Shown: positions 17,760 to 55,526 of the stretch, piece by piece
How positions within the stretch are numbered: the stretch's first letter is position 1
Layout: each line of letters begins with the position of its first letter
NCBI RefSeq assembly: GCF_021730395.1
Contig: NC_069369.1
Coordinates: 29,933,250-29,997,249, forward strand
Length of the DNA: 64,000 nucleotides
Reading direction: 5' to 3'
DNA from: Mercenaria mercenaria
Lineage: Eukaryota
Position numbers and translations under genes: made by a program
Notes under the pieces: model-generated
What the model saw: the letters and a program-made list of their open reading frames with translations, nothing else
Databases searched by the model: none
What the model was told of the DNA's origin: nothing

Positions 17760-18394
17760 CTGAAATTAAATAATGATCAAACTACTACAATGTTTCTCAA
17801 GCAATATACTTTCTGTTTAAAAGTATAGGAAGTCATTGTAACATGTCTCAGTAGCATTATTTATCATCTATTAGAAATGTTATTTATTTGGGTACTTAAT
17901 GATGTTATAGGATAGGTTTGATAATCTAATGACAAACACAAATATGTTCAGACACCATAATATTTTTATTCAATTAAAACCTAACAATATTTTAAGTGAT
18001 TCTACTACTGAGCTGGCTATTCAAAGACTAACCAAGCACGCATCACTCAACCTGTACTTTAAACGTAATCACGTGTTTCATTTGCTGCAATTGATATTTT
18101 ACGTTTTCCCATTTCATATAGAAGACTACTTCGGCCGGTGCTAGGGATAGAGAGGGTTCTTGCGCATTGCATTACCTTAATCAAACCGAGTTTGCTATTC
18201 TATTTGTTTGCGTCATATGCTTCCAAAGGACTTTCTAGCAGACCTAGGATATGTTACATAGATGACTTACATTGTAAGAGGACTGATCCAAAAGAAATGT
18301 CATCAGAACAATAAAAAGTTTAGAATGAAAAGAAAACGACAACAATTCATACGCAAGTACTTTAATCTATTTGCAATACTTTTTGAAAATATGC

Positions 18395-19215
18395 TTAAGC
18401 TAGCATCACATTGCACCGGATGGACTTGTGGATGAGTTCCGGATTCCCAATCCCGGATGGCTCCGGATGTGTAAGAAAAAAAAGGAGTTTGCGAATTCGT
18501 TACGTTATAAATCTCTATAACACAACCTTAATTAACATTTTTAGAACTGGAATAAAATATCTCGTATTTTTGACCACAGTGATAGTCTTCCAGACTGGAT
18601 GACTTACGAATGAGTTTGGAGTTCTACGGAAGCGTTACCGACATCGTTGACTTGTACGAGCATGGTACGGAATTTTTGAATTTGTAGAGGACTCAGGAAC
18701 TCATGTTTCACCGATTTCCCGAGTTCTCTTTGAGCTCGTAGAGATTTTCGAAGTTGGGAATTTGGAGCAGCTCGCAAGAGCCACGAACGGAAATCGCATA
18801 GGCCCCGGAAGAGTTTGTAAGGGCATCGCACGATGTCCGTACGGGTTTGCAAAAACTGCGAGGCTTGCGGAGAGCGTGCGATGTCAGCACGGGGCTCGCA
18901 TGGCGTTACGATCGCTATACGGGCTCCGTACGACTTCTTTGGTAATTCAAGGTGGTATAAAAACAAGTACGTACGAGTGCCGTGCGAGTGCCTTACGAAC
19001 CCACGAGCACCGTACGAGGTACGGCCTGGCTCCTTGCGAGCTCCGCACGACTTGTCTGCGATGTCCGTACTGATATCCTACGATTGCATCCTCTAAAGAT
19101 CGTACGGGGCCCGTAGGTACTGTGACGAGACACAACGATTGTACAGAGACAGTAAAGATTCTAAAATTGGTAGACCCGTATGATTTTTTAAATCCGTACG
19201 AGCATCGTATATTCA
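18395..19215. other. GC-rich insertion of about 0.8 kb full of CCGTACG motifs, copy A only
   Basis: Eight or more CGTACG/GTACG occurrences. Copy B instead carries an unrelated 150 bp at 53490-53640. Track ORFs here (18604..18966 and others) are probably GC-composition artefacts. Confidence 0.4.
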
Positions 19216-19840
19216 GCACTACATAATGAACGTTAAAGGATATCACTATAGTTTACATGGTTGACCATTAAAAGATGTAACTAATATCGTTATAATTTTA
19301 TATGAGTGGGTGGGTGTGTTAATTTGATGTCAATTGGTAATTGTCTGTCTTTTTTACTGTTTATAAAACACCATTATTGCGTGTGGCGAAATGTCGTCAG
19401 AGTGATCTTTGAAGTTTTGTATATTTGAAACGGAACAATAGAAGAAAATATTCATCAAAGGTATCCTTAATGAATTGGTTTTACACTTATATCTAATTTT
19501 TGTAACAATACAACGATGTATAAATGCGACGAGGTGACATTACTTATGGATAAACCCCGTATATCGCGTGACATAAAGGGATACATGCTCGTGATTCGTC
19601 AAGTCCAACTTATATCTTTATCTGACAATTACAAGGCAATGTGTAAACCAGACAGAGCTCATTTGTGGTCTTTTGGACTGCCTCGGCATTAAAAAACGCG
19701 TGACAATCGTAAAAATGAACCACTAATGCACCCTTATACACAAAGAAAATATCAATGTAGTGCACGTGGGAGAAGAATGCAAATGTAGATCTGACAGAAA
19801 TACAAAGTATATGCTATAGAATCACATGCACAATACGTAC

Positions 19841-20042
19841 GTTCAATGACAACTGTTATCTCCGAGAGCGTATGGCCGTCTCGAGTTTTACACCAGTATG
19901 TGTCAGCAAAGCTTAGATCAATCCTCAGTATATGGAGTTCCCACTCATTCCTTGCTGGCTTATTTATCATGAGATTTCTGGTATGCTTATATACTTGCAT
20001 ACCTTGCGTGAGCATCTCATTATTGCCGTTAAACCAACTAAC
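19841..20042 (-). CDS. IgSF gene copy A exon 2
   Basis: Track ORF 19752..20015. Acceptor ttttctttttag, donor GAAC|GTACGT. Encodes VSWFNGNNEMLTQGMQVYKHTRNLMINKPARNEWELHILRIDLSFADTYWCKTRDGHTLSEITVVIE. Confidence 0.65.
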
Positions 20043-20049
20043 CTAAAAA

Positions 20050-21545
20050 GAAAACAAGAGGGCCAAGATGGCCCTAGGTCGCTCACCTAAGAAACACACC
20101 ATAACAGTGTAAACATGTTAGACCTAGTGATTTCATGGAAACAAATATTCTGGCCAATTTTTATTAGGATTGGACCAAAAATGTGGTCTCTTGAGTTTAA
20201 ACAAGTATTTTGTTCGATATGACCTAGTGACCTAGATTTTGACCCTAGATGATCCATATTCAAACTTATCCTAGATTTTATGAAGGCAATCATTCTGACT
20301 AAATTTCATGAAGATCAATTGAAAAATACGGCCTCTATCGCATACACAAGGTTTTTCATTGATTTGACCTAGTGACCTACTTTTTAACCCATATGACCCA
20401 TATTCAAACTCGACCTACACTTCATCAAGACAATCATTCTGAATAAATTTAATGAAGATTAATTAAAAAATACAGCTTATATCGCATACACAATGTTTTT
20501 CTTTGATTTGACCTAGTGACCTAGTTTTTGACCCTAGATAAACCATATTCAAACTCGACCTAGATTTTATCATGGCAGTTATTCTTACCAAATTTCATGT
20601 AGATCAATTGAAAAATACAGCTTCTATCGAATACACAAAGTTTTTCTTTGATTTGACCTAGTGACCTACTTTTTGACTCCAGATAACCCATATTCCAAAT
20701 CCTCCTAAATTTCACCAAGGCAATTATTCTGAATAAATATCATGAAGATCAATTGAAATATACAGCCTCTATTGCATACACAATATTTTTCTTTGATTTG
20801 ACCTAGTGACTTACTTTTTGATCCCAGATAAACCATATTCAAACTCGATCTACAGTCCATTTTAACTGACCTAGCGGGGCGTGGTTTCGCGACGGTCCAC
20901 TGCATTATTGTGAAGTGTATGTAATACATTTGGCAACCTGATTTTTTATTCACTGGTCATCTACCTGACATTGTAACCACTGTAGCTCTACCTATTTTGC
21001 TCGTGTTTTGAGATTACCATTATTTGCATAAGCCAGAGGTTAACTCCACCCCGCCATTTCAAATAAAACGCACTATAGATTTCATCAAGGCCATCATTCC
21101 GACTAAATTTCATGAAGATCGATTTAACAATACAGCCTCTATCGCATACACAAGGTTTTTCTTTGATTTGACCTAGTGACCTACTTTTTCAATCCAGATA
21201 ACCCATATTCAAACTAGGCCTAAAATTTATCAAGGCAACTATTCTGATTAAATTTCATGAAGATCAATTGAAAAATACAGCCTCTATCGCATACACAATG
21301 TTTTTTCTTTTATTTGACCCTGTGACCTACTTTTTGACCCAAGGTATACCATATTCAAACTTGACCTAGAATTCATCAAGGCAACCATTCTGACCAAATT
21401 TCATGAAGATCAATTGAGAAATACAGCCTCTATCGCATACACAATCTAAATGTTGACATAGTATATTACGACAAAACGACAGACAGACAGAGGACAGACG
21501 CCGGACGCCGGACATCGAGCGATCACAATAACAGCAACAACAAAA
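20050..21545. mobile_element. Composite element with a 185-bp satellite array (20090-21480, about 7 copies) inserted in IgSF intron 1 of copy A only
   Basis: 5' AAACAAGAGGGCCAAGATGGCCCTAGGTCGCTCACC. 3' ...GGACAGACGCCGGACGCCGGACATCGAGCGATCACAATAACAGCAACAAC. Copy B runs straight from exon 2 into the shared downstream sequence. Confidence 0.6.
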
Positions 21546-21839
21546 ACAAAATAAAAACAAAACAACAACATACAGAGTTTGCTTTTAAAAACATTCACTT
21601 ACAATAATATAAAACTGGAATATTTTTCCTTGTGTTCGTTGTAATTTTCATCATTCTCTTTCAATCTTATATGTTGACACTAGCACGATACAAATATTCA
21701 TCCATGTGCTATATTTAAAGTAACATAAAAGTAAGGTTTATCAATAAAATTTGTTAAATCCTGTGGAAGAATGCAACTAGATACTCGTTTTGACTGAACC
21801 TTTTCATGACAGGTAATGCAAAAATTATGATATACTTAC

Positions 21840-21946
21840 AGTAACATCCCTAAATGGCTCCAGTCTGCAGGGCAGTTTACATAAATTGTTCAACACACAT
21901 GGTTTTGTCATTTCATAAGCTCCCACAGCCGTTTTCATGTTACTCA
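21840..21946 (-). CDS. IgSF gene copy A exon 1
   Basis: Encodes SNMKTAVGAYEMTKPCVLNNLCKLPCRLEPFRDVT, donor ACT|GTAAGT. Homologous to the plus-gene exon 1. Confidence 0.55.
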
Positions 21947-22093
21947 CTTAATAAATGATTTAAAACTCTGTCAATACATAAACAGGACGGAGAGGTGTCT
22001 TAAAAGTCTTTACAGAAATACGTAAAGAAATTAAAATGTTTAGATATGTAACTGTTAAGACCCGGGTGCAACTCGAAGGAAAAGGCGCGCGCG

Positions 22094-22094
<1 letters not shown>

Positions 22095-22131
<37 letters not shown>

Positions 22132-22135
22132 GAAA
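22095..22135. repeat. (AC)n microsatellite of about 19 units, copy A only
   Basis: Direct read. The track ORF 22000..22227 is produced by it. Confidence 0.9.
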
Positions 22136-22603
22136 AAAAACAACAAAACAGCAACAAAAAATATCTTCATATTCATGATCCTTGTATCTAATATAACGTT
22201 TGGTTCACAAGTACCACTTACATCCAAAAATTGTCAGAATAATACCGCAATGATCCCGACTGAATAATCCTAAATCCAAAATTCTAGTAATTAGAAAGTT
22301 AACATTTATCATGAGAACAAAGATATTCAGTTACTTCAAGTAACTGTTTGGACACAGCATTAACGTCCTAGGGTGTGTCAGCAATTGTTCAATTCAGCAA
22401 TTGTTGTGGCAGAATTTATATGACGTTCATAAAATGCACTTTATTTGAAGCATAGGTGTTTATACTGGAGATGATATTTTTACAATTTGCGCTAAATGGT
22501 CAAGTCACCCGGATGAGCGACTTATTTAATCTACATAGAAATAAATGTTAGTAGAACAACTACGCAATAACATTTGTCAGAGTACAAAAATAAAAATACG
22601 TAC

Positions 22604-22655
22604 CCATGAATGCTACAGTCTGTATCCATAGTAACAGTATGCGTAGTAGTTCCAT
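22604..22655 (-). CDS. IgSF gene copy A, signal-peptide exon
   Basis: ATG GAA CTA CTA CGC... gives MELLRILLLWIQTVAFM. Donor ATGG|GTACGT is phase 1 and matches the phase of exon 1. Conserved in copy B. Confidence 0.5.
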
Positions 22656-23689
22656 TAGTCCAGGAAATATTCTACAAGTTTCCATAAACACCGATAAAGA
22701 ATATATTTGTTAATTTTTACATACTTTCACTCACAATCTATGAATGATGATATATTATGTGTTCATAAGTAGTTACATCCGATAAACTATTACAAAATGA
22801 CGAAAGATAATGTTAAACAAGAGAATCATAATGGCCCTAGACCGCTCACCTGGGTTTCACAGATTAATTTAACGATTTTGATGATGCCACGCATAGAAAA
22901 TATCTATGATATTAATAGGGAAAATGGACCAGTGTTTTCTGAAAACAATCTGGGATCTGTTATATGCATATATGAATTATACACCGACATCAGTCTTTAG
23001 AGTCCATTAGAAATGAATATCTATGCCATAAAATCCTCTTAAACAGCACTTTCTGAAAAGCTTTGATCTCTGACTCTAACGACTAGACAAATGCGACTTG
23101 AACTGGGCAGAATTCTTCCCAGCTAATAATTACCATAAAATCGGAAATCATTGCAACTCTGTTCATGATGTAACAGAAATTTGGTTGACTCCAGTGCCAT
23201 GGATCATAGAATCCTTAATGACCTTCATAGTCTGTATAACGAAGTGCTTGTCAATGGGTACTTTGAAGCATTTGACATAAGGAGATACACGAACAATGTA
23301 TACTTCACCGAATATACAAAATGAACTTAAAGGTATTTGTGGCAAAATAATCTGCGATGATCTTGTGCAGGAATCAGATATTTGGCTTAACATTTCCTGT
23401 TCCCATGTATAAGTATGGTTGCAATATCCGACAGAAGCTGGCCGAGGAATGGCAAGTACCTACTGACTTTCAAAAAAACGCGGTTGCTGTGTCTGCGGGT
23501 GCGTCTGGTCCGTTACGCTGATGACCATGTTTTCTTATCTAAGTACCGCACACACATTGCCATTTGCTCTGTTTTAGAAGACTTTCATCGGCAATAAAAA
23601 TCCGAAAAAAATCCGATTGGTTGCATGCTTTCACTTTCGACGTCGGCGAGAAGCAACTGCTAAGAGAGTATGTGGACGGTTGCGAGTGT

Positions 23690-31600: not shown

Positions 31601-32654
31601 GATATTTACAAGTACAGGTGAGATCAATACAGGCCTACGGCCGGAAAAAGATATAAAATGTACACAGAGATGATATTGTCCAAATATAAGTTAATACGGT
31701 TCTTTGAAAAGAACTCACTCATTTACTTTTTTGTAATACTTAAGGAACATACCTTTATTTTGTGGCGCCTCATGATGTTGTTGTTCCAGTTGTACCTAGT
31801 AAATTTGATAAACTCTGAAAAAGTGGTTAATTTATCAATTTGTATGACCTTTTAGAATTAAACCTATTAATTATACAATTAACAACATACGATGTTGTCC
31901 ATAACAAAATTTGTCAAAATGAACAAACATGGATATTTTATAATAACAATTATTGAAAGAAAACTAGAGTTTCAAGCAAGCTTAAATTCCAGGCCTACAC
32001 ATTTAGATAAAGACTGAAATTAAATACCTTGTTGTTTCAGTCAGCACTGTTCCCAGCTGCACTGTAAGTACTGTATGATTACAGGAAGACACCACTTCTC
32101 CTGTATGTAGAATGCGTGCGCGGTGATATTAAATCGTTAAAATTATAATACGCTATTAACAGCTTGTACCATCCTTCATACTGTATGAATACTTATAATA
32201 TTTAACGGAATATTTGTGTCCAAGTGTTACCATTTGAAACAGTTCTTTGTAGTAGGTGTATGTGAAATTAACAACCATATTATTCATGGAGAGATGGGAT
32301 TTAAACAACTAATATCACAAACTGTTCAGATTTTGATGTTTGTGTGTATGTATTCGTATTTATTTATTTACAGTAAATAATACACATATGTAAATATGTT
32401 TAATATAGGACATTAAGTTGAAAGGAAGATATGTTAACATTAAAATCGCTTTCTTCACATGATGCGCTTAGTAGAAAGAATAGGTGCTGAAGAGAGTAAT
32501 ATGATTTTTTCAAGAGGGGCATTAATCTTCGAGAATTCACCTCTCAGTACTTTACAACTACCATGGTGTTTGGACCAGCTTATAAAGCAAGTACTTCCTC
32601 AATCTGATTAAAACCCTAATTTATATTTATAAAGATCGAGTAGTCAGATTGGTT

Positions 32655-33085: not shown

Positions 33086-33155
33086 ATGATTCATTTTCGT
33101 GGTGTACAGATAAGAGTACTGGTATTGCCCCTTTTAAGCTCACAGCTTCATACCT
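33086..33155 (+). CDS. Candidate signal-peptide exon of plus-strand IgSF gene
   Basis: ATG...MIHFRGVQIRVLVLPLLSSQLHT with a hydrophobic core. The phase-1 donor T|GTTAGT would join exon 1 in frame. No homology support. Confidence 0.25.
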
Positions 33156-34072
33156 GTTAGTAAAACCTAATGCTTTCTGTTTAGTACAAGACCTGCGTTT
33201 TAGTGCTTTTGAAAAAGTTGAATTCTATTTATCTAATTGTACGGCTGACAAACAGGCATGGACCCGACCTAGACGGAAATAATAGAAAAATACACTGTTG
33301 TGTCTTATATTTTGAACAATAGCTAAAGGATCTGTAACTCAAAACAGAAAAGGTTCAAATGGTAACAAATTTATGTTTTGTCAAAATACCTATATATAAA
33401 TAAAAAACAATAAAAGAAAAAAAAGCAATAAAAATACCTCACGAAATCAGTAAGGTTCATGAAGATCTTGTAAATTCAGCGACACAGTACTTTATTATTT
33501 CTGACTGGTATTTTAGTGTACTCGTACTAAAATAGATATACTTGCTTTTTCCTTCTATTTTTTTTTCGATGTGAAGGCGGTACAAATCGTACACTAACTA
33601 CAATAATGTATAGTTTTAAGTTTATGACATAGTTTTTTCTTGGGGTAAAAAGGCTTACATATCTATAAAGTTTTAGACATATTCCTATTTCCTTGTTCGT
33701 ATATAACTTGCGTATCTTATCACAACATGATATGTCTTAGTTACGTTACATTTATATAGTTCCAATTAACCGACTACAAGAATCGATATGATCGGGAAAC
33801 TGCATATTATCTTTTTGTGTCATATCATTGGGAACCACAGGTTTCTTGTTTACACGCCTTCTATCTCTAACATTCACGCAGGAAAAATGAAACAAAAGAG
33901 CTAAAGTAAATACCATAACTTGTGTATGTACTTACTAGAACGCAACTTTTATATTATCATCACATTAATGAAACTTCATTGCATCGGCAACACCGACATA
34001 ATCCTTTACTTCATCGGGAACACAGGATAAAGTATACCTCATTATATAATAGATTTTTAAATTATTTTTTAG

Positions 34073-34188
34073 TTTGTATGAAGATGGTTGACGGAGCTTA
34101 CAGAGTCATCAACATAACAAAGTCATGTGTTTTAAACCACGAGTGTAAATTGCCCTGCAGGCTGGAGCCATTTTCGTATACTATTAAT
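34073..34188 (+). CDS. IgSF gene (plus paralogue) exon 1, Ig domain 1 N-half
   Basis: Acceptor ttttttag, donor AAT|GTAAGT. Encodes CMKMVDGAYRVINITKSCVLNHECKLPCRLEPFSYTIN. Homologous to minus-strand exons at 21840-21946 and 54655-54770. Confidence 0.6.
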
Positions 34189-34492
34189 GTAAGTATATTC
34201 GTATACATCTACTGAAATCACTTAAGCGTATGTATCCATATTTGAACATCTTTAAGTAAAACTGCATATAGTTGTAAGACATCCCTCTAATATACCATAT
34301 TCCGCCATCTACATCCGGAAGCGGCATTTTCCTCACTTGAACTTCCGTAGGTGCACGTTTACGTCTGATCCTCTGAATATATGCATCATTGCACTACCTA
34401 CTCTACCAGTGTCTCGCACTGAAAAAGTCATTTTGATCCAACTAAAAATGATGAATTTTATAGAGATTCAAAGTACTTTTTTTACTTTCCAG

Positions 34493-34694
34493 GTCCTTTG
34501 GTTTAACAACAATAATGAGATGCTTACTCGAGGCAACCAAGTACATAAGCATTACAGAAATCTCAGAATCGAAAAGCCAGCTTACAATGAGTGGGTTCTG
34601 TATATACTTCGAGTGAATCAAAATTTTGCTGATAAATACAGGTGCAAAACAAGTGACGGATATACGTTGTCAGAGATAACAGTTGTTGTTGAAA
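34493..34694 (+). CDS. IgSF gene (plus paralogue) exon 2, Ig domain 1 C-half
   Basis: Acceptor tttactttccag, donor GAAA|GTACGC. Encodes VLWFNNNNEML...NEWVLYILRVNQNFADKYRCKTSDGYTLSEITVVVE, with the W...Y.C Ig signature. Confidence 0.65.
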
Positions 34695-35057
34695 GTACGC
34701 AAATCTCGTGCTTGCTAATTAGTTAAGTATTTCTGCGAATTTATTTATCTGTACTTACCCTTTTAGCTCACCACGACCACAGGTTCAGAATGAGCTGTCA
34801 GTATAGGCAGAACTGAGTTTCATACACCTGAATTGGTATTCTCCTTTTTGTAACATCTGACATTTCCAATCAGGTAAAACATGGATATAGAACAGTGGAA
34901 GAATTTCTTTATTCTTCCTATGGCGTCCCACAAATGATGAGATGACTCTTGAATTATGCATGAAATCTTCCGTCTATCAAAAGCCTTATCAATTGTGGTT
35001 GTAGTGCAACAATTTAAAAACTCTTCGGCAGAAATTTTAAAATATTCACAATTTCAG

Positions 35058-35195
35058 ATGAACCCAGGATAGATGAACAAAAATCATCGTCTTTTCATGA
35101 ACATTTCCATGAACATTCCCTGGCACAACTGAATTGTATATTTTATGGCTCACCTAAACCAGAAGTAACATGGCACCGTGGACCATCGAAGGAAC
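35058..35195 (+). CDS. IgSF gene (plus paralogue) exon 3, Ig domain 2 N-half
   Basis: Acceptor atttcag. Encodes EPRIDEQKSSSFHEHFHEHSLAQLNCIFYGSPKPEVTWHRGPSKE. Only the donor GAAC|GTAGGT (not GTACTT 4 bp downstream) keeps exon 4 in frame. Confidence 0.5.
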
Positions 35196-35429
35196 GTAGG
35201 TACTTAGTGTTTACTTGTTAGTGTCTTCATCTTGATAACTCGACTTAAGAGCAATATCCAATATAAACAGCTACGTTCTAAGAGCACAACTTCTCCAAAA
35301 CAAAACCCTACAACTTCATTTTGTTTTTTTAATAAGTTATGCCCCCACCTTTTTGACATAGCCAGGTTTGTTAAGTTAGTATCACAGCAACCACTAATAA
35401 GGATTGACTGAAACTCTTTATATTTGTTC

Positions 35430-38338
35430 ACCACCCTTGTTACCCGGATAATACAAGATGATGTGATAACTCCAACATGCTATAAAATGGCCGATCAACT
35501 ATTTTGAAAATTTCACGTTTTTCGGTAAGTTGCTGTGGCTTGATAAGTGATTTTAACCCCCAGATGTTGCAAAAAGAACGAATGGCGATTTGTTTCCATG
35601 GAACTCAAACTATTTTACTGTATTTTTGTGAATACAATACACAATATGTTAAATAGTTTACAAAAACCATGTAAGTTTAGTTTGAAAAATCATAAACAAT
35701 ATTTAGAATTGTTTTACCCGCTTGTAATTCACTGTATGTATGACTACCATTTCATTATCTGTCATAGTTTACAGTAAGTTGTTTACTTTTGCCGTTTTAA
35801 TGTCAAAACCTTTTATATTGATCTATGTATGAAAAATGGATAATAGCCAAAAATGACCATGGATAACGCCCTATATGTGTTGTCCTTGAAAGTTGATAAT
35901 AGCCAATATTGATTTTTTTCATTGACATCCCATAACAGCTTGACCACTTTTGTGTGCGTGGACATGTTTTGATAAATTACTTGGTAAAAACATGATGATA
36001 TCAGCCTGTTAACATTTTTATGCTGGTAACAAGCACAGTGTGCAACTTGCACCTTCCTTGTTTCAAGTGCACATGTGCATAAGTATTATTTCCCCCGCTG
36101 TCCCTTTTTATCCCACGATCTCTATATTCCATATAAAGTACATACATGTATTTGATTGTCAACTACCTTTTATAATCACTAATAGCACAAACCCTGTTCA
36201 CATTCTGAATATCTAGGTGTACATAGTGGTACACCAAGACCTCTCTGATGAGAGACTGGCTGTGCTTATACGCCTTTCTACAAACCATACATTTATGAGG
36301 GTACTCATCAGTTGTTGAAACTTCAACAAAGGAGCCAACTCTACCTGTTCGTCAATGTTGTCTATTTCATCCATCTCTATTCTGGAATGAATACCTGTAA
36401 TTAAAGATGTGTACAAGTTTCAAGAAGTCTGAACCTTGTTTACTAGTTGACAAGCAATTATTTACAAAGAGCAATTTTAAGCGTGGTAAAAACTGAAACA
36501 AACCAAAATTGTTACATTCTGTTAAAAGTGCGACGACTGATAATGAAATGTTTCAAGAACTTCTGGTACTGACCACCTGTATAATACATTGCATTGAGTG
36601 TGCTACATCAATAAGTTACCACATTTCATACGTATACTTATCTAATATACAAAATTGTACCTTAAGAATAGAATATGCAAATATCAAACTAAACTTACAC
36701 GAAAAATAAACGCAACAATTACATTTCCTCACCATTTTGTTTTAAGAGCATACATCAATACTTACATTCCATATTTCGCTTCCATCTAAATGGCGCTGCA
36801 CAAAATGCTCGTGAACCTCGTGCTATTATACCACGAGGCGAATCAATAAAACTTTGCAGTGTATAATTCAACGCCAATTAGGCGTGACTTAACCGCTATT
36901 TTCGGTGTTTACCGCAGTATTGTTATGACCTTAAAGTGCAGACATGCCTCGATGCATAAAGTTGATCTATACATTGCCTCATTTACAAGGAGTATACTCA
37001 ACACCGATTTAATTCCTTATTCAAATACCAAGGCTAAATATGGCAGAGAGAAATCTAATTTTGGGACTTTTAACCGGTGGAATTTCACAGATACAATGTT
37101 TCAAAATGAAAAATTTCGACGTTAGTTGGACGTGTTAACATTACAGTAACAGCTGGTGACCGTCAACGTTCAGTTGCACCGCGTCTGACAAGCATACGTC
37201 AAGATAATATGATACGTCAACGACATTTACGTGACAGCTTTGTGACGTCGCAATTCACGTCACATGTTGTAATTGGAAATCCCAGACGACCAATTTACCG
37301 TGACGCAGTCATAAATTGTTTGCGTAAACGCGGGATTCATTTTCGTCGTCCAACTCGATGTAAGGCTCTTGTCATCGTCAAGAAAAGCAACGCTGGGCTC
37401 TAAATAACCGACGACGTCTGTGGGGAACTGTTGTATTAAGCGACGAATCAAGATTTAATCTCCATCACGCTGACGGATAGGTCAGAATATACAGACGCCG
37501 CAACGAACGTTTCGCAAATAACTGTGTGCGTGAGGTTTATCCGTACAATGGTGACAGAGTCATAGTATGGACAACAATAAATTCCACCTTCAAGACCACC
37601 CTTGTATAGTCTGTCATACAGAGAAATGGTGGCTATACGCGTTATTGACTGCACTGATGTTGAAGCATGGAAAGAAATATGATCTCAGACGATATTAATT
37701 TTTTGATGATATTTTTTTTCTGTTATGTTTACTTTGATTACACATATAAATTTGTATGGCTAAACATCAGTAGGTTATAAATATTGACTATTACAGTACT
37801 TGTTGCGTTTCTTTTTCGTGTCACTTTACAATGTTGACTATTATCCATATAACATTTTGGGCTTTATCTTCGAAATTTCTGCGAACACTTTGGTCAGTAT
37901 CCATCGACTTACACATATGCTTATATATTTGTAAATTTGGGTTATTTGATCTAAGATAAAAACTTCCTAATATGTTCATATCATTGTTTATATGTTAACT
38001 AAAAATTACAAAATAGCATTCATTACCGAAAGTCCATTAAATAAGGTTGACAACGGTTTAAATCGCCAAACTCGTTCTCAAAAGCAAAATGTAAACATTG
38101 TTAAAGCGTTTCCAAAGTGAAAAATATGTCCGATATGCAAACTGTTTAGTGCAAATGGTACAGCTTGTAAACTATATTGAATCAGTTATAACACTTTAAA
38201 CGATGAGAATGAGTAATTAGAAAATATTGAAATAAACAATGTCCTTACCAAGTTTGACAGTTCATCCAGTTTGTAGCATGTTGGAGTTATCAAATCATCT
38301 TGTATTATCCGGGTAACAAGGGTGTTCAATGTGGTGAT
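35430..38338 (+). mobile_element. Tc1/mariner-like DNA transposon of about 2.9 kb with about 60-bp terminal inverted repeats, in IgSF intron 3
   Basis: Inverted repeats CACCCTTGTTACCCGGATAATACAAGATGAT.TGATAACTCCAACATGCTA at both ends. Encloses the decayed transposase at 37140-37700. Confidence 0.6.
37140..37700 (+). pseudogene. Decayed Tc1-family transposase
   Basis: ...CLRKRGIHFRRPTRCKALVIVKK... then LWGTVVLSDESRFNLHHADG*VRIYRRRNERFANNCVREVYPYNGDRVIVWTTIN. This is the W.VLFSDESKFNL...DGR..V.RR region of the DD34E core. In-frame stop and frameshifts present. Confidence 0.6.
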
Positions 38339-38497
38339 CTGACATATAATACAGGTCCTGCAACTATGTTTCGCCTTTCACAAAGTAATGTAACGTTCAT
38401 TCATTAAACGTCTTTGCTTTCCTTACGTGTTATACTCGCGTGTAAGACTACTAGTATATTTTCACAGGTAAACTATAACCTGTGCTTTAAATTGCAG

Positions 38498-38626
38498 CTA
38501 TTGAAGGTATTAAGGGACCTAAATTAATCATTAGAGATATCGAAAGGTATGCAAGTGACAACTACACCTGCATTGCCACAAACGAACACGGAACTGATGA
38601 GAGAGAAATAAAAGTGACAGTGGACT
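38498..38626 (+). CDS. IgSF gene (plus paralogue) exon 4, Ig domain 2 C-half
   Basis: Acceptor aattgcag, donor GGACT|GTAAGT. Encodes IEGIKGPKLIIRDIERYASDNYTCIATNEHGTDEREIKVTVD, an I-set-like ending. Confidence 0.6.
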
Positions 38627-38868
38627 GTAAGTTAGATCTCTATAAATTACTGAATGTTTCTTGATAAAGCAATACAATCTTCAAGCTTTTCAATTATTTC
38701 TATTCAATGCATATTCTTAATCGAAACTGCTGCTAGGTAGGTAAGAAATGAAGCCGGTTAAGTTTCGGAGCTATATTTGCCTATGATCCCTACCTCATAG
38801 AAATATAAGTTCAGAGCCAAGCAGTGTATATCATCATGTAGACAAAAACATTTTATTATTTATCTAAG

Positions 38869-39020
38869 TTGACCCCGAAGTAACTGTGATGGAGTCAGAG
38901 ATGTATGTTACCGGTGGGGAAATGGTGATAATGGGTTGTTCTGTCCAAGCGTCACCGTTGCAGGATGCTTTCTGGACAAACCATAGAGGTGACAGGGTAA
39001 AAAGCAACTGGAAATATAAG
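38869..39020 (+). CDS. IgSF gene (plus paralogue) exon 5, Ig domain 3 N-half
   Basis: Acceptor tctaag, donor AAG|GTAATG. Encodes DPEVTVMESEMYVTGGEMVIMGCSVQASPLQDAFWTNHRGDRVKSNWKYK. Overlaps track ORF 38886..39155. Confidence 0.6.
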
Positions 39021-40189
39021 GTAATGTTCATTCGAATGTATCACGATATAATACATGTTCCAAGGTTGTCAGTAAGTGTTTTATCCTACCACTATGCATT
39101 TATCAGGCCGATATCTGCCTGCCGTGTAAACTTGAGCTTTATACAGTCAATGTAGGTTTATACTGTCAATACAACTGACGGACTACGTTTTCAAGTATAT
39201 GTGCTATAGGCAATGTAAACTGGGCTGTGTTCGAAGCTCAAACATTTCCACCTCGTCTCCGAAAGGTTTATCCCCCCTCGGCAAGCCTCGGGTGGATAAA
39301 CCTTTCTCCAACTCGGTGGATAAACTTAAGTTAAGAAAGACAGTAACCTAATATTCTCTATATAGCGCGATTCATGGATTTGCAAGAAGTCCCAACGTAG
39401 TTTATATCCGTATAAACGCACAAAAATAGCATTCAATTATTATATTAACATTTTTACAGTAGCTTGCTACAAAAATAAGTGGTATGCTTTCCATGAGTAC
39501 GAGGAAATCAAAACATATATAATGTCAAAAAAGAAGAAAATCTTTTCAACACCCAAATAAAAAGCCGAAAAGCCAACTCACGTTAAATTGTAATTCACCT
39601 TCCGATAAAAATACAGTTCCTGATTTTTACTTGATATATCAATAAATCCAGTGATCTTTAAAGTGAGAAAAGTTAGTTTTAGCTATAATTTACTGTTATT
39701 TTTGAAATTTGATGTCCAATTTTGAAAGAATTTTTCGAACGACGCCATTTTACTCGTGTCTTTTTGATAATGACGTCGTATGGCGCTTCATATCATTACG
39801 CCAATGTTGTTTATACGAAAATAAACAATTTTTTCATTCCATACAAAATATATAGGGAATGTAAATATTTTAAAATGAGCTGTCAATTACGAAGTTCAAA
39901 TTCCAAGGTTTCAGTACAAGATAATTTACATGGGCGGATTGGCAACTGCATTCTTTGAACGTGACTTACCTGATGGACGTTTGATCTTATCTTTTAACAA
40001 GTTAGGTTGTTTTTGCTTTCCCGCATTTTGTCCTTTATGTATCCGTATAAAACATTGTATTATCAGTCTTACGAACCAATTTGTAACAGTTATTTTTATA
40101 CCTACATATTTAATATATATTAAATTCTTGCTGTTTCCATTTCAACCGTCCTAACGTATATTTGTTTTAAATATCTTTAATATATGAGC

Positions 40190-40420
40190 CGTGTCATGAA
40201 AAAACCAACATAGTGGGTTTGCGACCAGCATGTATCCAAACCAACCTGCGCATCCGCGCAGTCTGGTCCGGATCCATGCTGTTCGCTGACAGTGTCTCTA
40301 ATTGCAACAAGCTTTGAAAGCGAACAGCATGGATCCTGACCAGACTGCGCGGATGCGCAGGCTGGTCTGGATCCATGCTGGTCGCAAACCCACTATGTTG
40401 TTTTTCTCATGGCACGGCTC
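40190..40420. mobile_element. Foldback element with about 95-bp near-perfect inverted arms
   Basis: CCGTGTCATGAAAAAACCAACATAGTGGGTTTGCGACCAGCATG.ATCCA.ACCA.CCTGCGCATCCGCGCAG.CTGGTC.GGATCCATGCTGTTCGC, a 30-bp loop, then the reverse complement. Shares its core palindrome with the piggyBac-like MITE family. Ends 25 bp upstream of the last IgSF exon acceptor. Confidence 0.7.
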
Positions 40421-40445
40421 ATATATTTGCCTTATTTTCTTTCAG

Positions 40446-40613
40446 CTGACAGAAGAAAAGGAAACTGATCATTTTCCAGTGCGGTTTCTAGAGCTAATTA
40501 TCAAGAAAAACATAGTCAGTAAACAAGACGAAGGCAACTACACCTGTTATGGTGTGGGACAGAACAGTGAAAGCAAAGATGTTGTTATATTAAAAGTGAA
40601 AGATTTTGGCTGA
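40446..40613 (+). CDS. IgSF gene (plus paralogue) terminal exon, Ig domain 3 C-half plus stop
   Basis: Acceptor ttttctttcag. Encodes LTEEKETDHFPVRFLELIIKKNIVSKQDEGNYTCYGVGQNSESKDVVILKVKDFG*. No transmembrane segment, so the product is predicted secreted. Confidence 0.65.
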   Translation: MTEEKETDHFPVRFLELIIKKNIVSKQDEGNYTCYGVGQNSESKDVVILKVKDFG

Positions 40614-49024: not shown

Positions 49025-49186
49025 CTAGAAGCGTTTTATTTTTAATGCAACAACAGCACGACTTTCTCTCCCCGCTCTGTCCTCACCATGGCACGTGTAG
49101 TTGCCTTCGTCATCTATCGTCGCTTTATTTATTTCGAGCTGTATAAAGCGTACTGGAAAATACTCGCTCTCCTTTTCGTCGTCGAC
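49025..49186 (-). CDS. IgSF gene copy B terminal exon (stop at 49025)
   Basis: Encodes VDDEKESEYFPVRFIQLEINKATIDDEGNYTCHGEDRAGRESRAVVALKIKRF*. Confidence 0.55.
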   Translation of the reverse strand, partial: VDDEKESEYFPVRFIQLEINKATIDDEGNYTCHGEDRAGRESRAVVALKIKRF

Positions 49187-49414
49187 CTAAAAGGTATTAG
49201 ATCGATTTACTTAACCTAAAAAGACATACATACGGACGTTTTGCTTAAAGTGTTAGAATCTAAAATGGAAAATACATTTTACAAAATCATTGTCGCATGA
49301 CATTATCGTGTACTTACAGGGGACTACATGTAGTAAAATGGAAAAATCCTTCAATTTAAAGTTTGTAAATTGTAACTCCTCCACAACAATCATGATACAT
49401 GAGAATTAACATAC

Positions 49415-49569
49415 CTCATATTGCCAGTTGTTCCTTTCAATCTTAATGCCTTTATGGTTAGTCCAGAATGCTTTTTGCAGCGGAGAAGCTTGAACAGCAC
49501 AGCCCAATATCACCATTTCACCTCCGGTAAAATAAACCACAGGTGCCATCACCGCAACTTCAGGTGCAA
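49415..49569 (-). CDS. IgSF gene copy B exon 5
   Basis: Encodes APEVAVMAPVVYFTGGEMVILGCAVQASPLQKAFWTNHKGIKIERNNWQYE. Confidence 0.55.
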
Positions 49570-51822
49570 CTACAACAAAATAACAGAGTCTGCTTTTTAA
49601 AGTACATAAATACTATGGATTGGAGAGAATAACTTTAGAATTACATGACAACCACATTCTGAAACTGCCCAATCAAATTATTTTAACCAAACTATTATAT
49701 TGTGAATGTTTTTACACGTTTCCTATAGATTTTATTTTTTGGCTTTATTATGGTGTTTTGTGACCTCCAATCAAGTGAATTTTCATGGACCATTGCTTTT
49801 CATAGTATCTTATATCAAAACATTCAAATAAACTTTGAGTCTAACATGTACTCTTAACAACTATTCTAATGCAACACTTTTATTTCTTGGCAATATCGTT
49901 TAAATTAGTAAGTACAATTGAATATGTTCACATTTTAAGAATAATATTCTGCCAATATCAAATTAAACGTTAAAGAACTACCAGTCATGAAAGGACATGT
50001 TTATTTTCAATCGATTTTTAATATTAACAAAAACACACACACACAAATTCTGTTGTTGTTTTTTATATATAAAAGAAGCAAATACCATTTATAAGAATAT
50101 TTACTAGAATATGCTTAAATTCCAGACGAAAAAGAGTTAGAGCACCAAAACGATATATTTTTGTATCTTTTCTAGATATGTATGTGCATTTTTGTGTCTT
50201 TTAAAAATGGAACCAAGTCGTAAAATAAATGAAATTATATGATGGCATAGATTTTGTTGATAATTTAAAGTAAGTCTACGAATGTAAAGTTCTGAAAATG
50301 CGTCAAAGTTCTAGAGAGTTTTTTTTCCATCTGTTATCAATATATTGGTAAAATAGAAAGTGTTTCGTTAAGACATTTTAAAGTGTATAATAAACAAATT
50401 AAGTACATTTAAATTCCCCACTAAATAGGTTGTTTTATGAATGAGGGAAATATATTTTGGAAGATATTTAATTTTCAGATATATTTATGAAATTTAAAAA
50501 AAATAACGACAATTACTCTGTCGTTATTGAAGTGATCCTGATGAAAGATGAGCTTGCCCTACCGCCTAATGATTCTCATAGTTTGAACATATTTTTAACC
50601 AATGACAAGCGAAGGATTTTCAAAAAAGTAACCAACTTATTTTCATATTATTTCATAACGGAAAAAATGAGTCACTTAATCACGAAGTAGTTCAAAATTA
50701 ATGGGATTCGCCTACTTTGAATCAACAACATTCAAGGAGGCGGAGCAACTGGCAAATACAGGGACTGCTAATAGAATTATAAATGACTTTGTAATAAACA
50801 TGTACTCCTCGATCATGAGTGAAGTCAAGACTAGCCAATGAAATCCAAGAGATTGAAGAAGGCAAGGTTTAGTTTATTAATTTACCATAGACGGAGATTT
50901 TTGTTGCTTTAACCTGTCAGTAAAACGAAACGGGACGTTTTAACTATAAGACGGTTATAGATCATTTATTGACATTCCAATGCATTAAGTTTTGCCTTCA
51001 CTACGGTGAGATCAGTTTCGGCAAGCTTAGTTACATTAGAATGTCAATAAATGATCTATAACATATACATATTTGTGTTAAATTTCATGAAGATCCATTA
51101 ATGGATTACTTTGTTATGTTGTAAAACAATTAAAGGACAATAACTCTGAAGTTACTGAAGTGATCCTGATGAAGTTGTGCGTGCACCATCCAATATAATG
51201 ATCTGCATTTGTGTAAAGTTTCATGTTCAGTTTATATATTTAGTGATACTTTTTAATACATGCTAGTAAATTTGACCCGTACTCGGCTGACAACGTTATT
51301 TTAGCCGATGTTTTCGTACTGTTCCTTTGTACTGCTACCTGGGACTTCCAGCACAAGGGCCCTCGTTTACTGATAGATATTTCATGAACGGGAAGAGCTA
51401 GAGACTTGTGGTTGATCTCAGTTTGTAACTAAATGAATTTACATGAAATAGTAATAGATGTTTATGTAATTGTTTGGAGAATTTGTTTCACAACGGCTTG
51501 GGAAGTGAAGCCTTTGCTCGGAGACTCGAACATCGGTATGATATATATCATTTGAAAGGGGCTCATTTCCACTACATATTTTTCCTTCTTGCTTGATTTA
51601 GGATGAAAACAGTGGTTTTTATTTGGTCTTATTTTTTCATTCAAGTTCCTACACTAGTGGCTATGGTTACTAAAAGACTTTTTGAATAATAAACATTTTT
51701 AATTTCGGACGGCCGCGAAAGGACGGACGAACAGCCGGACGGACAACGCCAAATTTATATTCCTCCATCTTCGACGGGGGATAACAAGTACCATATTACC
51801 AAAACTGCAAAATACGACTTAC

Positions 51823-51951
51823 AGTCCACGAATACATGCATATGTCTCTCGGAAGTTCCGTGTCTGTTTTCGGCAATGCAAGCGTACTCGTCACTTGCGT
51901 ACCTTGTGACGTTTCTGATGATCAGCTTATGGTCCTTTAAACCTTCAATAC
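51823..51951 (-). CDS. IgSF gene copy B exon 4
   Basis: Encodes IEGLKDHKLIIRNVTRYASDEYACIAENRHGTSERHMHVFVD. Donor GGACT|GTAAGT. Confidence 0.55.
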
Positions 51952-52822
51952 CTTTAATTAAGAAGTTGTTTTATATGTTGGAATATATGGACCGAGAACA
52001 TACATTAAAAAATCGCCCAAAAGCATTTTTGCCATTCGGGGCAGGCACGTGTACATGCCATTTTTATTTACTCAAATCATGCATATGACGATTTTGGACC
52101 AATAAATCAAATATATAGAGGATATTACATGAGTGTCTTTTCATATTGAATTTATTAAACGAGTTGAATAAAACTATAAACTGCGAGGCTCTGCCGAGCC
52201 CTTTATCAATTCTGTTCAACGAGTTTAATAAATTCAATGTGGAAAGACACAATTGTAATATTCTTTTTATCACATGTAAGCTTTTCCTGCTGAAACTCAA
52301 AATTTCTTCTTTCTTTACCTAAAATAGACTAAGTATATTTGTCCAACGCCCCTATACTTAAAACGACGTCAACGTCAAAGCTAGTGTAATACCAAATTTA
52401 TGTAATGGCTTTATTTAACTCCCACGCCGTCAAACATGTGATAAAAACCAAATCCTCTAGATAGTAATTGTTGGTAGGGTTCTATAGTCTCTGTCATGAA
52501 ATGTAAGACGTTTTATCTGGCATACAGTCTGCTAAAATTAATCGATTTGAAACTTGTAATTCCCAACAATTCTTCACGACATTTTTGTGGTTTTAAAATT
52601 TTAAGAGTCAAACTCCTCAAGACTTACCCAAGCGGATGTGTTTTTCTAAAAAACAAGCCTTCGCAAATACTTTTGAAATGAACATATACATGTACACAAT
52701 ATTGGTCTCCCTAGTTCTCTACTTGAAAGTCTGTCCATCTCGAAAGCGCTTTATTAGTAGTTCTTTGAACAAAGGATTAAGTCAAATTATAATGGTATAG
52801 TGGATTAAAGTCCTGTACATAC

Positions 52823-52957
52823 GTTCCTTTGACGGTCCACGGTACCACGTTACTTTCGGTTCCGGTATGCCGGAAAATTCACAATTCAGTTGCGCCAGTG
52901 AATTTTCAAGGAAATGGGTACGAGTAGAAGAAGACTTATTTTTCAATCTTGGCGCAT
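52823..52957 (-). CDS. IgSF gene copy B exon 3
   Basis: Encodes APRLKNKSSSTRTHFLENSLAQLNCEFSGIPEPKVTWYRGPSKE. Confidence 0.55.
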
Positions 52958-54168
52958 CTGAAATTAAATTATAATCAAACTACTACAATGTTTCTCAAGC
53001 AATATACTTTCTGTTTAAATGTATAGGAAAACATTGTAACATGTCTCAGTAGCATTATCATCTATTAGAAATGTTATTTATTTGGGTACTTAGTGATGTT
53101 ATAGGATAGGTTTGATAATAAAATGACAAACACAAATATGTTCGGACACTATAATATTTTTAATCAATAAAAACCTAACAATATTTTAAGTGATGTTACT
53201 ACTGAGCTGGCTATTCCAAGACTGACCATGCAGGCATCACTAGCAGCTATATTTAGGACTAGAGGCTATGGTCTATTTCAATCAGATACTGCAACAAGAG
53301 GTTCGACCAAGTCCAAAGGCAAACTATGGTAGACCTTTTATATGCGAGAGTGCATCATATGCTTCCAGAGGATTTTCTACCAGACGTAGGACATGTTTCA
53401 TTGTACGATGGTTGATACAAAAGTAATGTCACTGGAGCAATAAAAATTGTACACAACAACAAATTCATACCCAAGTACTTTAATCTACCTGCAATAATTT
53501 TTGAAAAGATCACAAAAGATAGTTATTTACTTATCGAGATTTAGACATGCACAGAAAGCATGGTGACGAAGATTAACGCACGTCACTGACTTTATTAACG
53601 TCAGAAATTGATGTTTGTTGATAAGTAACAACAAACTTTAGCACTACATAATGAACTTTAAAGGATGCGACTGTAGTTTACACTGTTGATCATTAAAAGG
53701 CGTAACTAATATTGTTATAACTTCATATGAATAGGTGTGATATTTTGATGTCAATTGGTAATTGTCTTAGTTTTACTGCTTATGAAAGAAACGCCGTTTT
53801 GCCTACGGCTAAATGTCGCCAGAGATCTTGATTTGATTTCTATAAATTAAATAATTCAACGATGTATAAATGTGCAATGGACGCAGTGACATTACTTATG
53901 GATTAACCCTCACATATCGCGTGACATAAAGGGATATATGCTCGTGATTCGTTAATTATTGACCATTAAAAGGCAATGTATAAAACAGACAGAGCTCATT
54001 TCTGGTCTTTTGGATTGGTTTGAAAGAAGAAAAATCCCAAACAATCGTAAAAAAGACCCACTAGTGCACCATAATACACAAATAAACTATTAATTTAGCA
54101 GAAGAAGAATGCAAATGTACAAACTACAAAGTATATGCTACAGAATCACATGCACAATGTTCACCTAC

Positions 54169-54370
54169 GTTCAATGACAACTGTTATCTCCGAGAGCGTA
54201 AGCCCGTCTCTAGTTTTACACCAGTATGTGTCAGCAAAGCTTAGATCAACCCTCAGTATACGGAGTTCCCACTCATTCCTCGCTGGCTTATTTATCTTGA
54301 GATTTCTGGTATGCTTATATACTTGCATACCTTGCGTTAGCACCTCATGTTTGCCGTCAAACCAAATAAC
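54169..54370 (-). CDS. IgSF gene copy B exon 2
   Basis: Track ORF 54161..54343. Encodes VIWFDGKHEVLTQGMQVYKHTRNLKINKPARNEWELRILRVDLSFADTYWCKTRDGLTLSEITVVIE. Donor GAAC|GTAGGT. Confidence 0.65.
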
Positions 54371-54654
54371 CTACAAAGGAAATAATAATACAACTACAAC
54401 AACATACAGAGTGTGCTTTTAAAAATATTCGCTGTAATTTTCAATATTCTCTTTCAATCTTATATATTGATACTAGCACGATAGAAATATGCATCCATGT
54501 GTTATCTAAAGTAACATGAAATGAAGATTCATCAATAAAATTTGTGAGATCCTTTGGAAGCATCGCATGCAAACAAACAAAGTGATAACTGGAGACTCGT
54601 TTAAACTTAACCTTCTTTTCATGACAGGTAATGCAAAAATTATGATATACTTAC

Positions 54655-54770
54655 AGTAACGTCCCTAAATGGCTCCAGTCTGCAGGGCAATTTACACGAA
54701 TGATTCAACACACATGGTTTTGTCTTTTTTATAGTGTCGTAAGCTCCCTCAGCCGTTTTCATGATACTCA
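54655..54770 (-). CDS. IgSF gene copy B exon 1
   Basis: Encodes SIMKTAEGAYDTIKKTKPCVLNHSCKLPCRLEPFRDVT. Donor ACT|GTAAGT. Confidence 0.55.
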
Positions 54771-55526
54771 CTTAATAAATTATTTGAAACTGTGTTAATA
54801 CATAAACAGGACGGAGAGGAAGAAAGTGTGTTCAAAGTCTTTACAGAAATCACGTAAAGAAATTAAAATGTTTAAATAACTGTTAAGATCCGGCTGCAAC
54901 TCGAAGGAAAAGTCACAAAAAAACCAGTAACGAACAACATTTATTCAAAGATTTTGTGAGAACTGCACTATCAGAATAGAATACCTGACACATATAAGCA
55001 TTGAAAAGAATATCTTCATATTCATGATCCTTGTATCTAATATAACTTTTGGTTCACAAAGTACCACTAACATCCAAAAATTCGAAACAATTCGAAACAT
55101 GATCCCGACTGAATAATTCTAGTAATTCTAGAATTAGAATTTAATATTTATCATGAGAACAAAGATCCTCTGTAACTTCAAGTAACTGTCTGGACACAGC
55201 ATTTTTATCATACGCATAACGTCCCAGGGTGTGTCAGCAGTTGTTAAAAAGGCAGAATTTATATGAAGTTCACAAAATGTACTTTATTTGAAACATTTGC
55301 ACTTGTCTAGTTTTCAGCTTACAAACATGATTTTAGAAGATCTTAGTTTTCAAATGTGACTTTGCTTTAAAGCAAAAATAATTTATACTGGAGATGATAT
55401 TTTTACAATTTGCGCTAAATGGTCAAGTCAACCGGATGACCGACTTACTTACTCTACTTGGAAATAAATGTTAGTAGAACAACTGTGCAATAACATTTGT
55501 TAGAGTACGTTAATAAAAATACGTAC

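What the first reader, a model, noticed from the sequence alone, without database searches (positions are those of the whole stretch)
33086..40613. Third, older IgSF paralogue on the opposite strand between the duplicates, forming a small secreted-Ig gene cluster
Plus-strand exons at 34073-40613 encode the same domain plan: a V-like domain with C...W...Y.C, then two I-set-like domains ending DxGxYTC. Exon phases are identical to the minus-strand genes. Exon 2 is about 65% identical at protein level, but introns are unrelated. There is no transmembrane or fibrinogen-like exon, and the stop follows the third Ig domain, so the product is a short secreted 3xIg protein. Intron 3 hosts a Tc1-like transposon and intron 5 a long foldback. 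Exon 3 needs the donor GAAC|GTAGGT rather than the stronger-looking GTACTT 4 bp downstream, which points to a possible alternative donor that would create a frameshift.
Basis: partly seen in the sequence, partly recalled or inferred. Interest (0 to 1): 0.65.

Follow-up and report, generated by a model that had tools for sequence, protein, structure and literature searches.

The report
Annotated clam secreted three-Ig gene
This is an ordinary gene of the hard clam Mercenaria mercenaria, already in RefSeq, that encodes a short secreted protein of three immunoglobulin domains and is one copy in a tandemly duplicated family found in heterodont bivalves.

Summary
It is 100% identical to RefSeq XP_053407110.1, 'protein amalgam-like isoform X2', of Mercenaria mercenaria. 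The protein is a signal peptide plus three Ig domains, with no transmembrane segment, GPI tail or fibrinogen domain. Its closest solved relatives in sequence and predicted fold are the three-Ig DIP and IgLON adhesion proteins. Because it lacks an anchor, it resembles Drosophila Amalgam in layout.

Exon phases (1,0,1,1,1,0) match the two minus-strand paralogues, similarity is confined to exons, and the plus/minus split is older (dS about 0.87 against 0.12).

Corrections:
- The gene has its own 89%-identical twin outside the window. It probably belongs to a ~35-kb tandemly duplicated divergent gene pair.
- The annotated alternative donor is in exon 2 (+27 nt, in frame), not exon 3.
- The exon-3 donor GTAGGT is the better site and sits at the same position in both paralogues.

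The Tc1-like relic in intron 3 and the foldback in intron 5 are confirmed. Overall this is an ordinary, already annotated gene of unknown function.

The parts
32294..32345 (+). Coding exon 0: start codon and most of the signal peptide (MGFKQLISQTVQILMFV plus 1 nt), phase 1.
   Evidence: tblastn of P0001, the sequence itself and exact spliced mapping. It has the same 52-nt size and phase as exon 0 of the minus-strand gene at 55578-55527.
34073..34188 (+). Coding exon 1: end of the signal peptide and first half of Ig1 (Cys36, Cys42, Cys46).
34493..34694 (+). Coding exon 2: second half of Ig1 (Trp59...Tyr105-x-Cys107). An alternative in-frame donor at 34721 adds STQISCLLI (RefSeq isoform X1, 327 aa).
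35058..35195 (+). Coding exon 3: first half of Ig2 (Cys150, Trp162). The donor is GAAC|GTAGGT.
   Evidence: The paralogues use a donor at the same position.
38498..38626 (+). Coding exon 4: second half of Ig2 (SDNYTC, Cys194).
38869..39020 (+). Coding exon 5: first half of Ig3 (Cys236, Trp248).
40446..40613 (+). Coding exon 6: second half of Ig3 (DEGNYTC, Cys297) and the stop codon TGA at 40611-40613.
36690..37828 (+). Decayed, internally deleted Tc1/mariner-type element in intron 3. It has 33-nt terminal inverted repeats and TA at both ends, and its ORF is broken by frameshifts and stops.
   Evidence: TIRs and frames. Close homologues of the stitched ORF carry PF01498 and PF13358, with DDE_3 at 54.5 bits in P0172. 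The relic itself gives no Pfam or PDB hit.
35427..38329 (.). Larger element of about 2.9 kb in intron 3, bounded by 64-nt inverted repeats (92% complementary). It encloses the Tc1-like relic.
40179..40427 (.). Foldback (MITE-like) in intron 5 with 109-nt arms and a 31-nt loop. It ends 18 nt before the exon-6 acceptor.
13942..22685 (-). Paralogue A (LOC123546824). It has the same 7-exon plan and is 60% identical in protein to the plus-strand gene.
49025..55578 (-). Paralogue B (LOC123546823, 'neural cell adhesion molecule 1-like'). It has the same 7-exon plan, is 60% identical to the plus-strand gene and 86% identical to A.

Best explanation
The locus is a seven-coding-exon gene of the hard clam Mercenaria mercenaria (CDS 32294-40613, plus strand). 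RefSeq already annotates it as XP_053407110.1 and XP_053407109.1 ('protein amalgam-like' / 'hemicentin-2-like').

The product is a cleavable N-terminal signal peptide followed by three Ig domains, each split across two exons, and nothing else. It is therefore exported as a soluble rod of about 33 kDa.

It belongs to a family of proteins of about 300-330 aa with this same layout (signal peptide, three Ig domains, no anchor). Named members come from heterodont bivalves: Mercenaria, Ruditapes, Mactra, Mya and Dreissena. Several paralogues share a chromosome or contig in Mercenaria, Ruditapes and Dreissena.

In the window the gene lies head-to-head with a diverged paralogue. The pair as a whole appears to have been duplicated in tandem with a period of about 35 kb.

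By sequence profile and predicted fold the nearest characterised proteins are the three-Ig DIP/IgLON ('Wirin') adhesion receptors. Those proteins bind partners through their first Ig domain. This protein lacks their membrane tether, so the inferred mechanism is a soluble homophilic or heterophilic binding protein, in the manner of Drosophila Amalgam.

Shown here: the gene model, the domain content, the absence of an anchor, the paralogy and the duplication structure. Inferred: actual secretion, the binding mode, and the biological role (neural/adhesive versus immune). The confidence figure applies to the gene model, the architecture and the family assignment. The specific binding mechanism would rate about 0.4.
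For: - 100% identity over the full length to the RefSeq protein, with accessions. Exact spliced mapping of both isoforms to the window.
- Pfam Ig_3, I-set, Ig_2 and ig hits.
- Cys-Trp-Cys is invariant in each of the three domains across 12 family members.
- The only hydrophobic segment is residues 9-24. The mean hydropathy of the C-terminal 19 residues is -0.19.
- None of the family members whose C-termini were read ends in a run of about 15-20 hydrophobic residues. The tail of P0069 is only moderately hydrophobic.
- The AlphaFold2 model has pLDDT 88.1, with three beta-sandwich domains after a low-confidence N-terminal helix.
- The top Foldseek PDB hits are DIP-alpha/eta/theta Ig1-3 (E about 1e-24, TM 0.62-0.70), followed by NEGR1, IgLON5, OPCML and NTM.
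- Among full-length, single-stretch matches of the family profile to PDB sequences, the DIPs rank first (E=4e-43) and the IgLONs next.
- dN/dS is 0.33 against the minus-strand paralogues, so the coding sequence is under constraint.
- Collinear duplication: 13455-29607 matches 48553-63953.
- The literature reports that the DIP/Dpr subfamilies expanded independently in molluscs and that Wirins are normally membrane-tethered (10.1101/462036).
Against: - No expression data could be examined here. Transcript support is only implied by the RefSeq (Gnomon) models and by transcript-sized Logan contigs for homologues.
- SignalP and GPI predictors were not available. Secretion is inferred from hydropathy and a V-x-G|A cleavage motif.
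- Membership of the Wirin clade was not tested by phylogeny. Large multi-Ig proteins (titin, DSCAM, MDGA, hemicentin-like) score higher in total because they match many times.
- The position of the twin gene outside the window could not be retrieved.
- Nothing here bears directly on function.
Confidence: 0.88

Rival explanations
1. The same gene, but its product works as a humoral immune recognition protein or opsonin. The models would be insect hemolin or the Lymnaea molluscan defence molecule, rather than a neural or adhesive ligand of the Amalgam/DIP type.
For: The protein is soluble and made only of Ig domains. The family has several paralogues on one chromosome or contig in Mercenaria, Ruditapes and Dreissena. 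Young duplicates show relaxed constraint (dN/dS 0.57 for A against B). Bivalve immune gene families are commonly expanded in this way (general knowledge, not tested here).
Against: The fold and profile matches rank the DIPs and IgLONs clearly above hemolin. The protein has three domains and is predicted to be extended, not the four-domain horseshoe of hemolin. No expression or binding data are available for either reading.
Confidence: 0.3
2. It is really a membrane-anchored IgLON/Lachesin/DIP orthologue, and the exon encoding the GPI signal or C-terminal TM was missed.
For: Wirins are usually tethered (10.1101/462036). Automated names given to relatives include 'neurotrimin-like', 'lachesin-like' and 'OPCML-like'.
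Against: The stop codon lies inside exon 6, a few residues after the last strand of Ig3. Both RefSeq isoforms end there. None of the homologues read, from five named species and from transcript-sized contigs, ends in a long hydrophobic tail. No ORF of 110 aa or more lies downstream.
Confidence: 0.05
3. It is a decaying or non-functional duplicate (pseudogene) that retains an open frame by chance.
For: The introns carry transposon debris. The neighbouring paralogues have RefSeq isoforms that skip half an Ig domain or read through a donor.
Against: All seven exons are intact with canonical splice sites. dN/dS is 0.33 over 311 codons at dS about 0.87. All structural Cys and Trp residues are conserved. 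The fold prediction is confident.
Confidence: 0.04

Closest known systems
Drosophila Amalgam (Ama)
   Same: Signal peptide plus three Ig domains with no membrane anchor, so it is secreted. It is an IgLON homologue in flies (10.1101/462036). NCBI's automated name for this clam protein is 'amalgam-like'.
   Different: Orthology was not tested, because no Ama sequence was available in the tools. The cited paper could not align Ama reliably even to other Wirins. Ama's known partner (Neurotactin, from general knowledge) was not looked for here.
Drosophila DIPs (Dpr-interacting proteins), for example DIP-alpha, DIP-eta and DIP-theta
   Same: They are the best full-length matches in both sequence profile (E=4e-43 to 5e-39) and predicted fold (E about 1e-24, TM 0.62-0.70 over about 300 columns). 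They form a three-Ig extended rod. DIPs are reported to have expanded in molluscs.
   Different: DIPs are membrane-tethered and this protein is not. Sequence identity is only 19-23%. Conservation of the Ig1 binding interface was not tested.
Vertebrate IgLONs (OPCML, NTM, LSAMP, NEGR1, IgLON5) and insect Lachesin
   Same: Three I-set/C2-type Ig domains of similar length, with second-tier fold and profile matches. From memory, the IgLON genes have a similar exon plan: a signal-peptide exon followed by split Ig-domain exons. This was not checked here.
   Different: IgLONs and Lachesin carry a C-terminal GPI signal. This protein ends 'KVKDFG' with no hydrophobic tail.
Mollusc FREPs (fibrinogen-related proteins)
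   Same: They are secreted mollusc proteins that contain IgSF domains.
   Different: FREPs are defined by a C-terminal fibrinogen domain. None is present in the product or in either RefSeq isoform.
Hemolin and the molluscan defence molecule
   Same: They are soluble invertebrate proteins made only of Ig domains.
   Different: They have four or five Ig domains, and hemolin forms a horseshoe. Hemolin ranks far below the DIPs and IgLONs (rank 42; E=5.9e-23 over a single domain pair).

Membership tests
Immunoglobulin superfamily | Significant matches to Ig-domain profile HMMs | tested here: met
   Ig_3 at 78.5 bits, I-set at 73, Ig_2 at 57.5 and ig at 46.8, all above the curated cut-offs. Domain 1 alone is sub-threshold.
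Immunoglobulin superfamily | A Cys...Trp...Cys core in each domain and a beta-sandwich fold | tested here: met
   C46/W59/C107, C150/W162/C194 and C236/W248/C297 are invariant in 12 family members. The AF2 model shows three all-beta domains at pLDDT 88.
Wirin class (DIP / IgLON / Lachesin / Klingon) | An extended ectodomain of three Ig domains whose closest relatives are DIPs and IgLONs | tested here: met
   The best full-length matches to PDB sequences and folds are DIPs, then IgLONs.
Wirin class (DIP / IgLON / Lachesin / Klingon) | A membrane tether, either a GPI signal or a TM helix at the extreme C-terminus | tested here: not met
   There is no C-terminal hydrophobic segment. The stop follows Ig3. 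The same is true of the homologues read.
Wirin class (DIP / IgLON / Lachesin / Klingon) | Monophyly with the Wirins in a rooted phylogeny, or reciprocal best hits to the fly or human proteome | not tested
   No reference proteomes were available. Only the ranking against PDB chains was obtained.
Wirin class (DIP / IgLON / Lachesin / Klingon) | Homo- or heterophilic binding through the Ig1 CC'C''FG face | not testable with these tools
   This needs complex prediction or binding assays.
Drosophila Amalgam-type secreted IgLON homologue | Signal peptide, three Ig domains and no anchor | tested here: met
Drosophila Amalgam-type secreted IgLON homologue | Orthology to Ama | not tested
   The name 'amalgam-like' is an automated NCBI label. 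Paralogues and other isoforms are labelled hemicentin-, NCAM1-, VEGFR1- or IgSF10-like, so these names carry little weight.
Mollusc FREP | A C-terminal fibrinogen-related domain | tested here: not met
   No FBG hit appears in Pfam. The protein ends after Ig3.
Tc1/mariner transposon (intron-3 relic) | A transposase with a Tc3-type HTH and a DDE_3 catalytic domain | tested here: inconclusive
   The relic itself gives no Pfam or PDB hit. Its close homologues (45-78% identity) carry PF01498 and PF13358, with DDE_3 at 54.5 bits in P0172. The catalytic region is largely deleted in the relic.
Tc1/mariner transposon (intron-3 relic) | Terminal inverted repeats flanked by a TA target duplication | tested here: met
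   The 33-nt arms at 36690-36722 and 37796-37828 are 88% complementary. Each outer end reads TA (sequence).

The most novel reading that the evidence does not exclude
The anchorless DIP/IgLON-like proteins of heterodont bivalves could be a lineage-specific soluble recognition system. In this reading, the divergently transcribed 'plus-type' and 'minus-type' genes, which seem to have been duplicated together as a unit, encode co-regulated binding partners analogous to a Dpr-DIP pair. The exon-skipping isoforms that remove half an Ig domain (seen in RefSeq models of the paralogues) would then modulate that interaction. The role could be immune or in cell-cell recognition.
Probability: 0.08. Interest if true: 0.45.

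Novelty: already known. Interest (0 to 1): 0.12.

Why it matters
It matters little beyond correct annotation. The gene and both of its isoforms are already in RefSeq, and the protein is a conventional IgSF member. Two things have modest value. First, the work clarifies that this family is a set of anchorless, DIP/IgLON-like three-Ig proteins that underwent tandem segmental duplication in heterodont bivalves. Second, it shows that the automated names given to them (amalgam-, hemicentin-, NCAM-, VEGFR-, neurotrimin- and OPCML-like) all describe one family. That may help anyone studying IgSF expansion or soluble recognition molecules in bivalves.

Tried and rejected
- Pfam and PDB-sequence searches on the stitched transposase relic gave nothing. 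The Tc1 assignment needed a database search for intact relatives.
- The look-up of encoding contigs could not locate the genes for P0002, P0009 or P0004. The position of the 89% twin is therefore inferred from collinearity and not shown.
- The afdb50 fold library was unavailable, so Drosophila Amalgam could not be ranked directly against the DIPs and IgLONs.
- Rfam and tRNA scans of 31000-43500 found nothing.
- Literature searches for Mercenaria IgSF and for 'amalgam-like' in bivalves found nothing relevant.
The ATG there opens a frame that ends in a stop after 24 codons, and the nearby GT (gtaaaa) gives the wrong phase. The homologous, RefSeq-supported exon is at 32294.
- FREP, hemolin-like and GPI-anchored IgLON readings were rejected on domain content and the C-terminus.
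- A pseudogene reading was rejected on the intact ORF and dN/dS.


Full report
**What is there.** The window is eukaryotic, with about 35% G+C throughout.

A protein database search returned a 318-aa RefSeq protein of the hard clam Mercenaria mercenaria, XP_053407110.1, 'protein amalgam-like isoform X2'. It is 100% identical over the whole query and has 18 further N-terminal residues.

Exact spliced mapping of that protein onto the window gives seven coding exons: 32294-32345, 34073-34188, 34493-34694, 35058-35195, 38498-38626, 38869-39020 and 40446-40613. The phases after each intron are 1,0,1,1,1,0. The left limit of 33086 lies in intron 0, and the signal-peptide exon is 0.8 kb further upstream.

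A second RefSeq isoform, XP_053407109.1 (327 aa), uses an in-frame donor 27 nt downstream in exon 2, at 34721. This inserts STQISCLLI between Ig1 and Ig2.

**The protein.**
- Pfam matches Ig_3, I-set, Ig_2 and ig well above threshold for domains 2 and 3. Domain 1 alone is sub-threshold. It still has the Cys46...Trp59...Tyr105-x-Cys107 core, which is invariant across the family.
- The only hydrophobic segment is residues 9-24, followed by V-D-G|A. The C-terminus (…KVKDFG) is hydrophilic.
- AlphaFold2, run with an 11-sequence family alignment, gives pLDDT 88.1. The model has a low-confidence N-terminal helix followed by three beta-sandwich domains.
- Foldseek against the PDB ranks DIP-alpha/eta/theta Ig1-3 first (E about 1e-24, TM 0.62-0.70), then NEGR1, IgLON5, OPCML and neurotrimin.
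- A family profile searched against PDB sequences gives the same order among full-length, single-stretch matches.

The product is thus a soluble three-Ig rod of the DIP/IgLON ('Wirin') structural class, without the GPI or TM tether usual in that class (10.1101/462036). This is the layout of Drosophila Amalgam. Secretion and binding mode are inferences. No signal-peptide or GPI predictor and no expression data were available.

**Family and paralogy.** Both minus-strand genes map exactly to RefSeq models with the same seven-exon plan and phases. They are LOC123546824 at 13942-22685 and LOC123546823 at 49025-55578.

Between the plus gene and either minus gene, nucleotide similarity is confined to exons (66-78%). 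The introns give no match.

Divergence estimates:

| Comparison | dS | dN/dS |
|---|---|---|
| plus gene vs either minus gene | 0.86-0.89 | 0.33 |
| minus gene A vs minus gene B | 0.12 | 0.57 |

So 'older paralogue' is right. The plus gene is not a singleton, however. An 89%-identical protein (XP_053407111.1) is encoded on the same chromosome but not in the window. In an NJ tree the four Mercenaria genes form two pairs, with a Ruditapes protein outside them.

The segment 13455-29607 is collinear with 48553-63953 at about 75-94% identity, right up to the window edge. The simplest reading is a tandem duplication, with a period of about 35.1 kb, of a head-to-head 'minus gene + plus gene' unit. 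The twin's first exon would then be expected about 2.7 kb beyond the window. This could not be verified.

An exhaustive HMMER search gave thousands of Ig hits dominated by giant multi-Ig proteins. It also gave a set of proteins of about 300-330 aa that match end to end. Those that carry names come from Ruditapes philippinarum, Mactra antiquata, Mya arenaria and Dreissena polymorpha. Several lie together on one chromosome or contig. None of those whose C-termini were read has a long hydrophobic C-terminal tail. Their automated names vary widely (hemicentin-, neurotrimin-, lachesin-, OPCML-, NCAM1-, VEGFR1-like).

**Side claims.**
- Intron 3 (3302 nt) contains a 1.14-kb relic at 36690-37828 with 33-nt inverted terminal repeats and TA at both ends. 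It is nested in a 2.9-kb element bounded by 64-nt inverted repeats at 35427-38329.
- The relic's broken ORF has no Pfam or PDB match itself. It is 45-78% identical to proteins that carry the Tc3-type HTH (PF01498) and DDE_3 (PF13358) domains. 'Tc1-like' therefore holds, as a dead and internally deleted copy.
- Intron 5 carries a near-perfect foldback at 40179-40427, with dG -198.6 kcal/mol and z -26. It ends 18 nt before the acceptor.
- The exon-3 donor worry is unfounded. GAAC|GTAGGT has the +5 G found in 16 of the 18 donors used in these three genes, and GTACTT lacks it. Both paralogues splice at the homologous ...AGGAAC|GT.
- No fibrinogen or TM coding capacity is evident.

**Verdict.** The gene is already annotated, belongs to a familiar protein class, and has no unusual feature. 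Its function is uncharacterised. The most likely role is a soluble Ig1-mediated binding protein, either adhesive/neural or immune.

Noticed in passing
window 13942-22685 (minus strand), exon 4 at 16497-16369: Paralogue A (LOC123546824) has no full-length three-Ig isoform in RefSeq. Isoform X2 skips exon 4, which removes half of Ig2. Isoform X1 reads through the exon-4 donor into the intron and ends in an unrelated tail. The GTAAGT donor is nevertheless intact, and a full-length frame can be assembled. Paralogue B, and the twin of the plus gene, also have isoforms that skip exon 4 or exon 3 in frame.
   Followed up: partly
window 43301-44855: A 73-bp satellite of 21.3 copies (88% matches) lies in the intergenic space between the plus gene and paralogue B.
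   Followed up: no
window 27732-28601; related copies at 32666-32856 (intron 0 of the plus gene), 61621-61831 and 62756-63084: A 256-bp repeat is present as a 3.4-copy tandem array, with dispersed or partial copies elsewhere in the window, including inside the first intron of the gene under study.
   Followed up: no
window 1647-2357 (minus strand): A 236-aa ORF has a strong match to the Pfam integrase core domain rva_4 (E=7.9e-66). It is presumably part of a mobile element and is unrelated to the Ig genes.
   Followed up: partly
window 32287-32294: An out-of-frame ATG lies 7 nt upstream of the annotated start codon (tcATGgagagATGgga). It opens a short frame that overlaps the start and would form a small overlapping uORF if it is transcribed.
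   Followed up: no
window 40179-40445: The 249-nt foldback ends only 18 nt from the exon-6 acceptor. The usual branch-point zone would therefore lie in, or next to, a very stable hairpin in the pre-mRNA. Whether this affects splicing is unknown.
   Followed up: no
window 39261-39306: A small imperfect palindrome (46 nt, 83% complementary) lies in intron 5.
   Followed up: no
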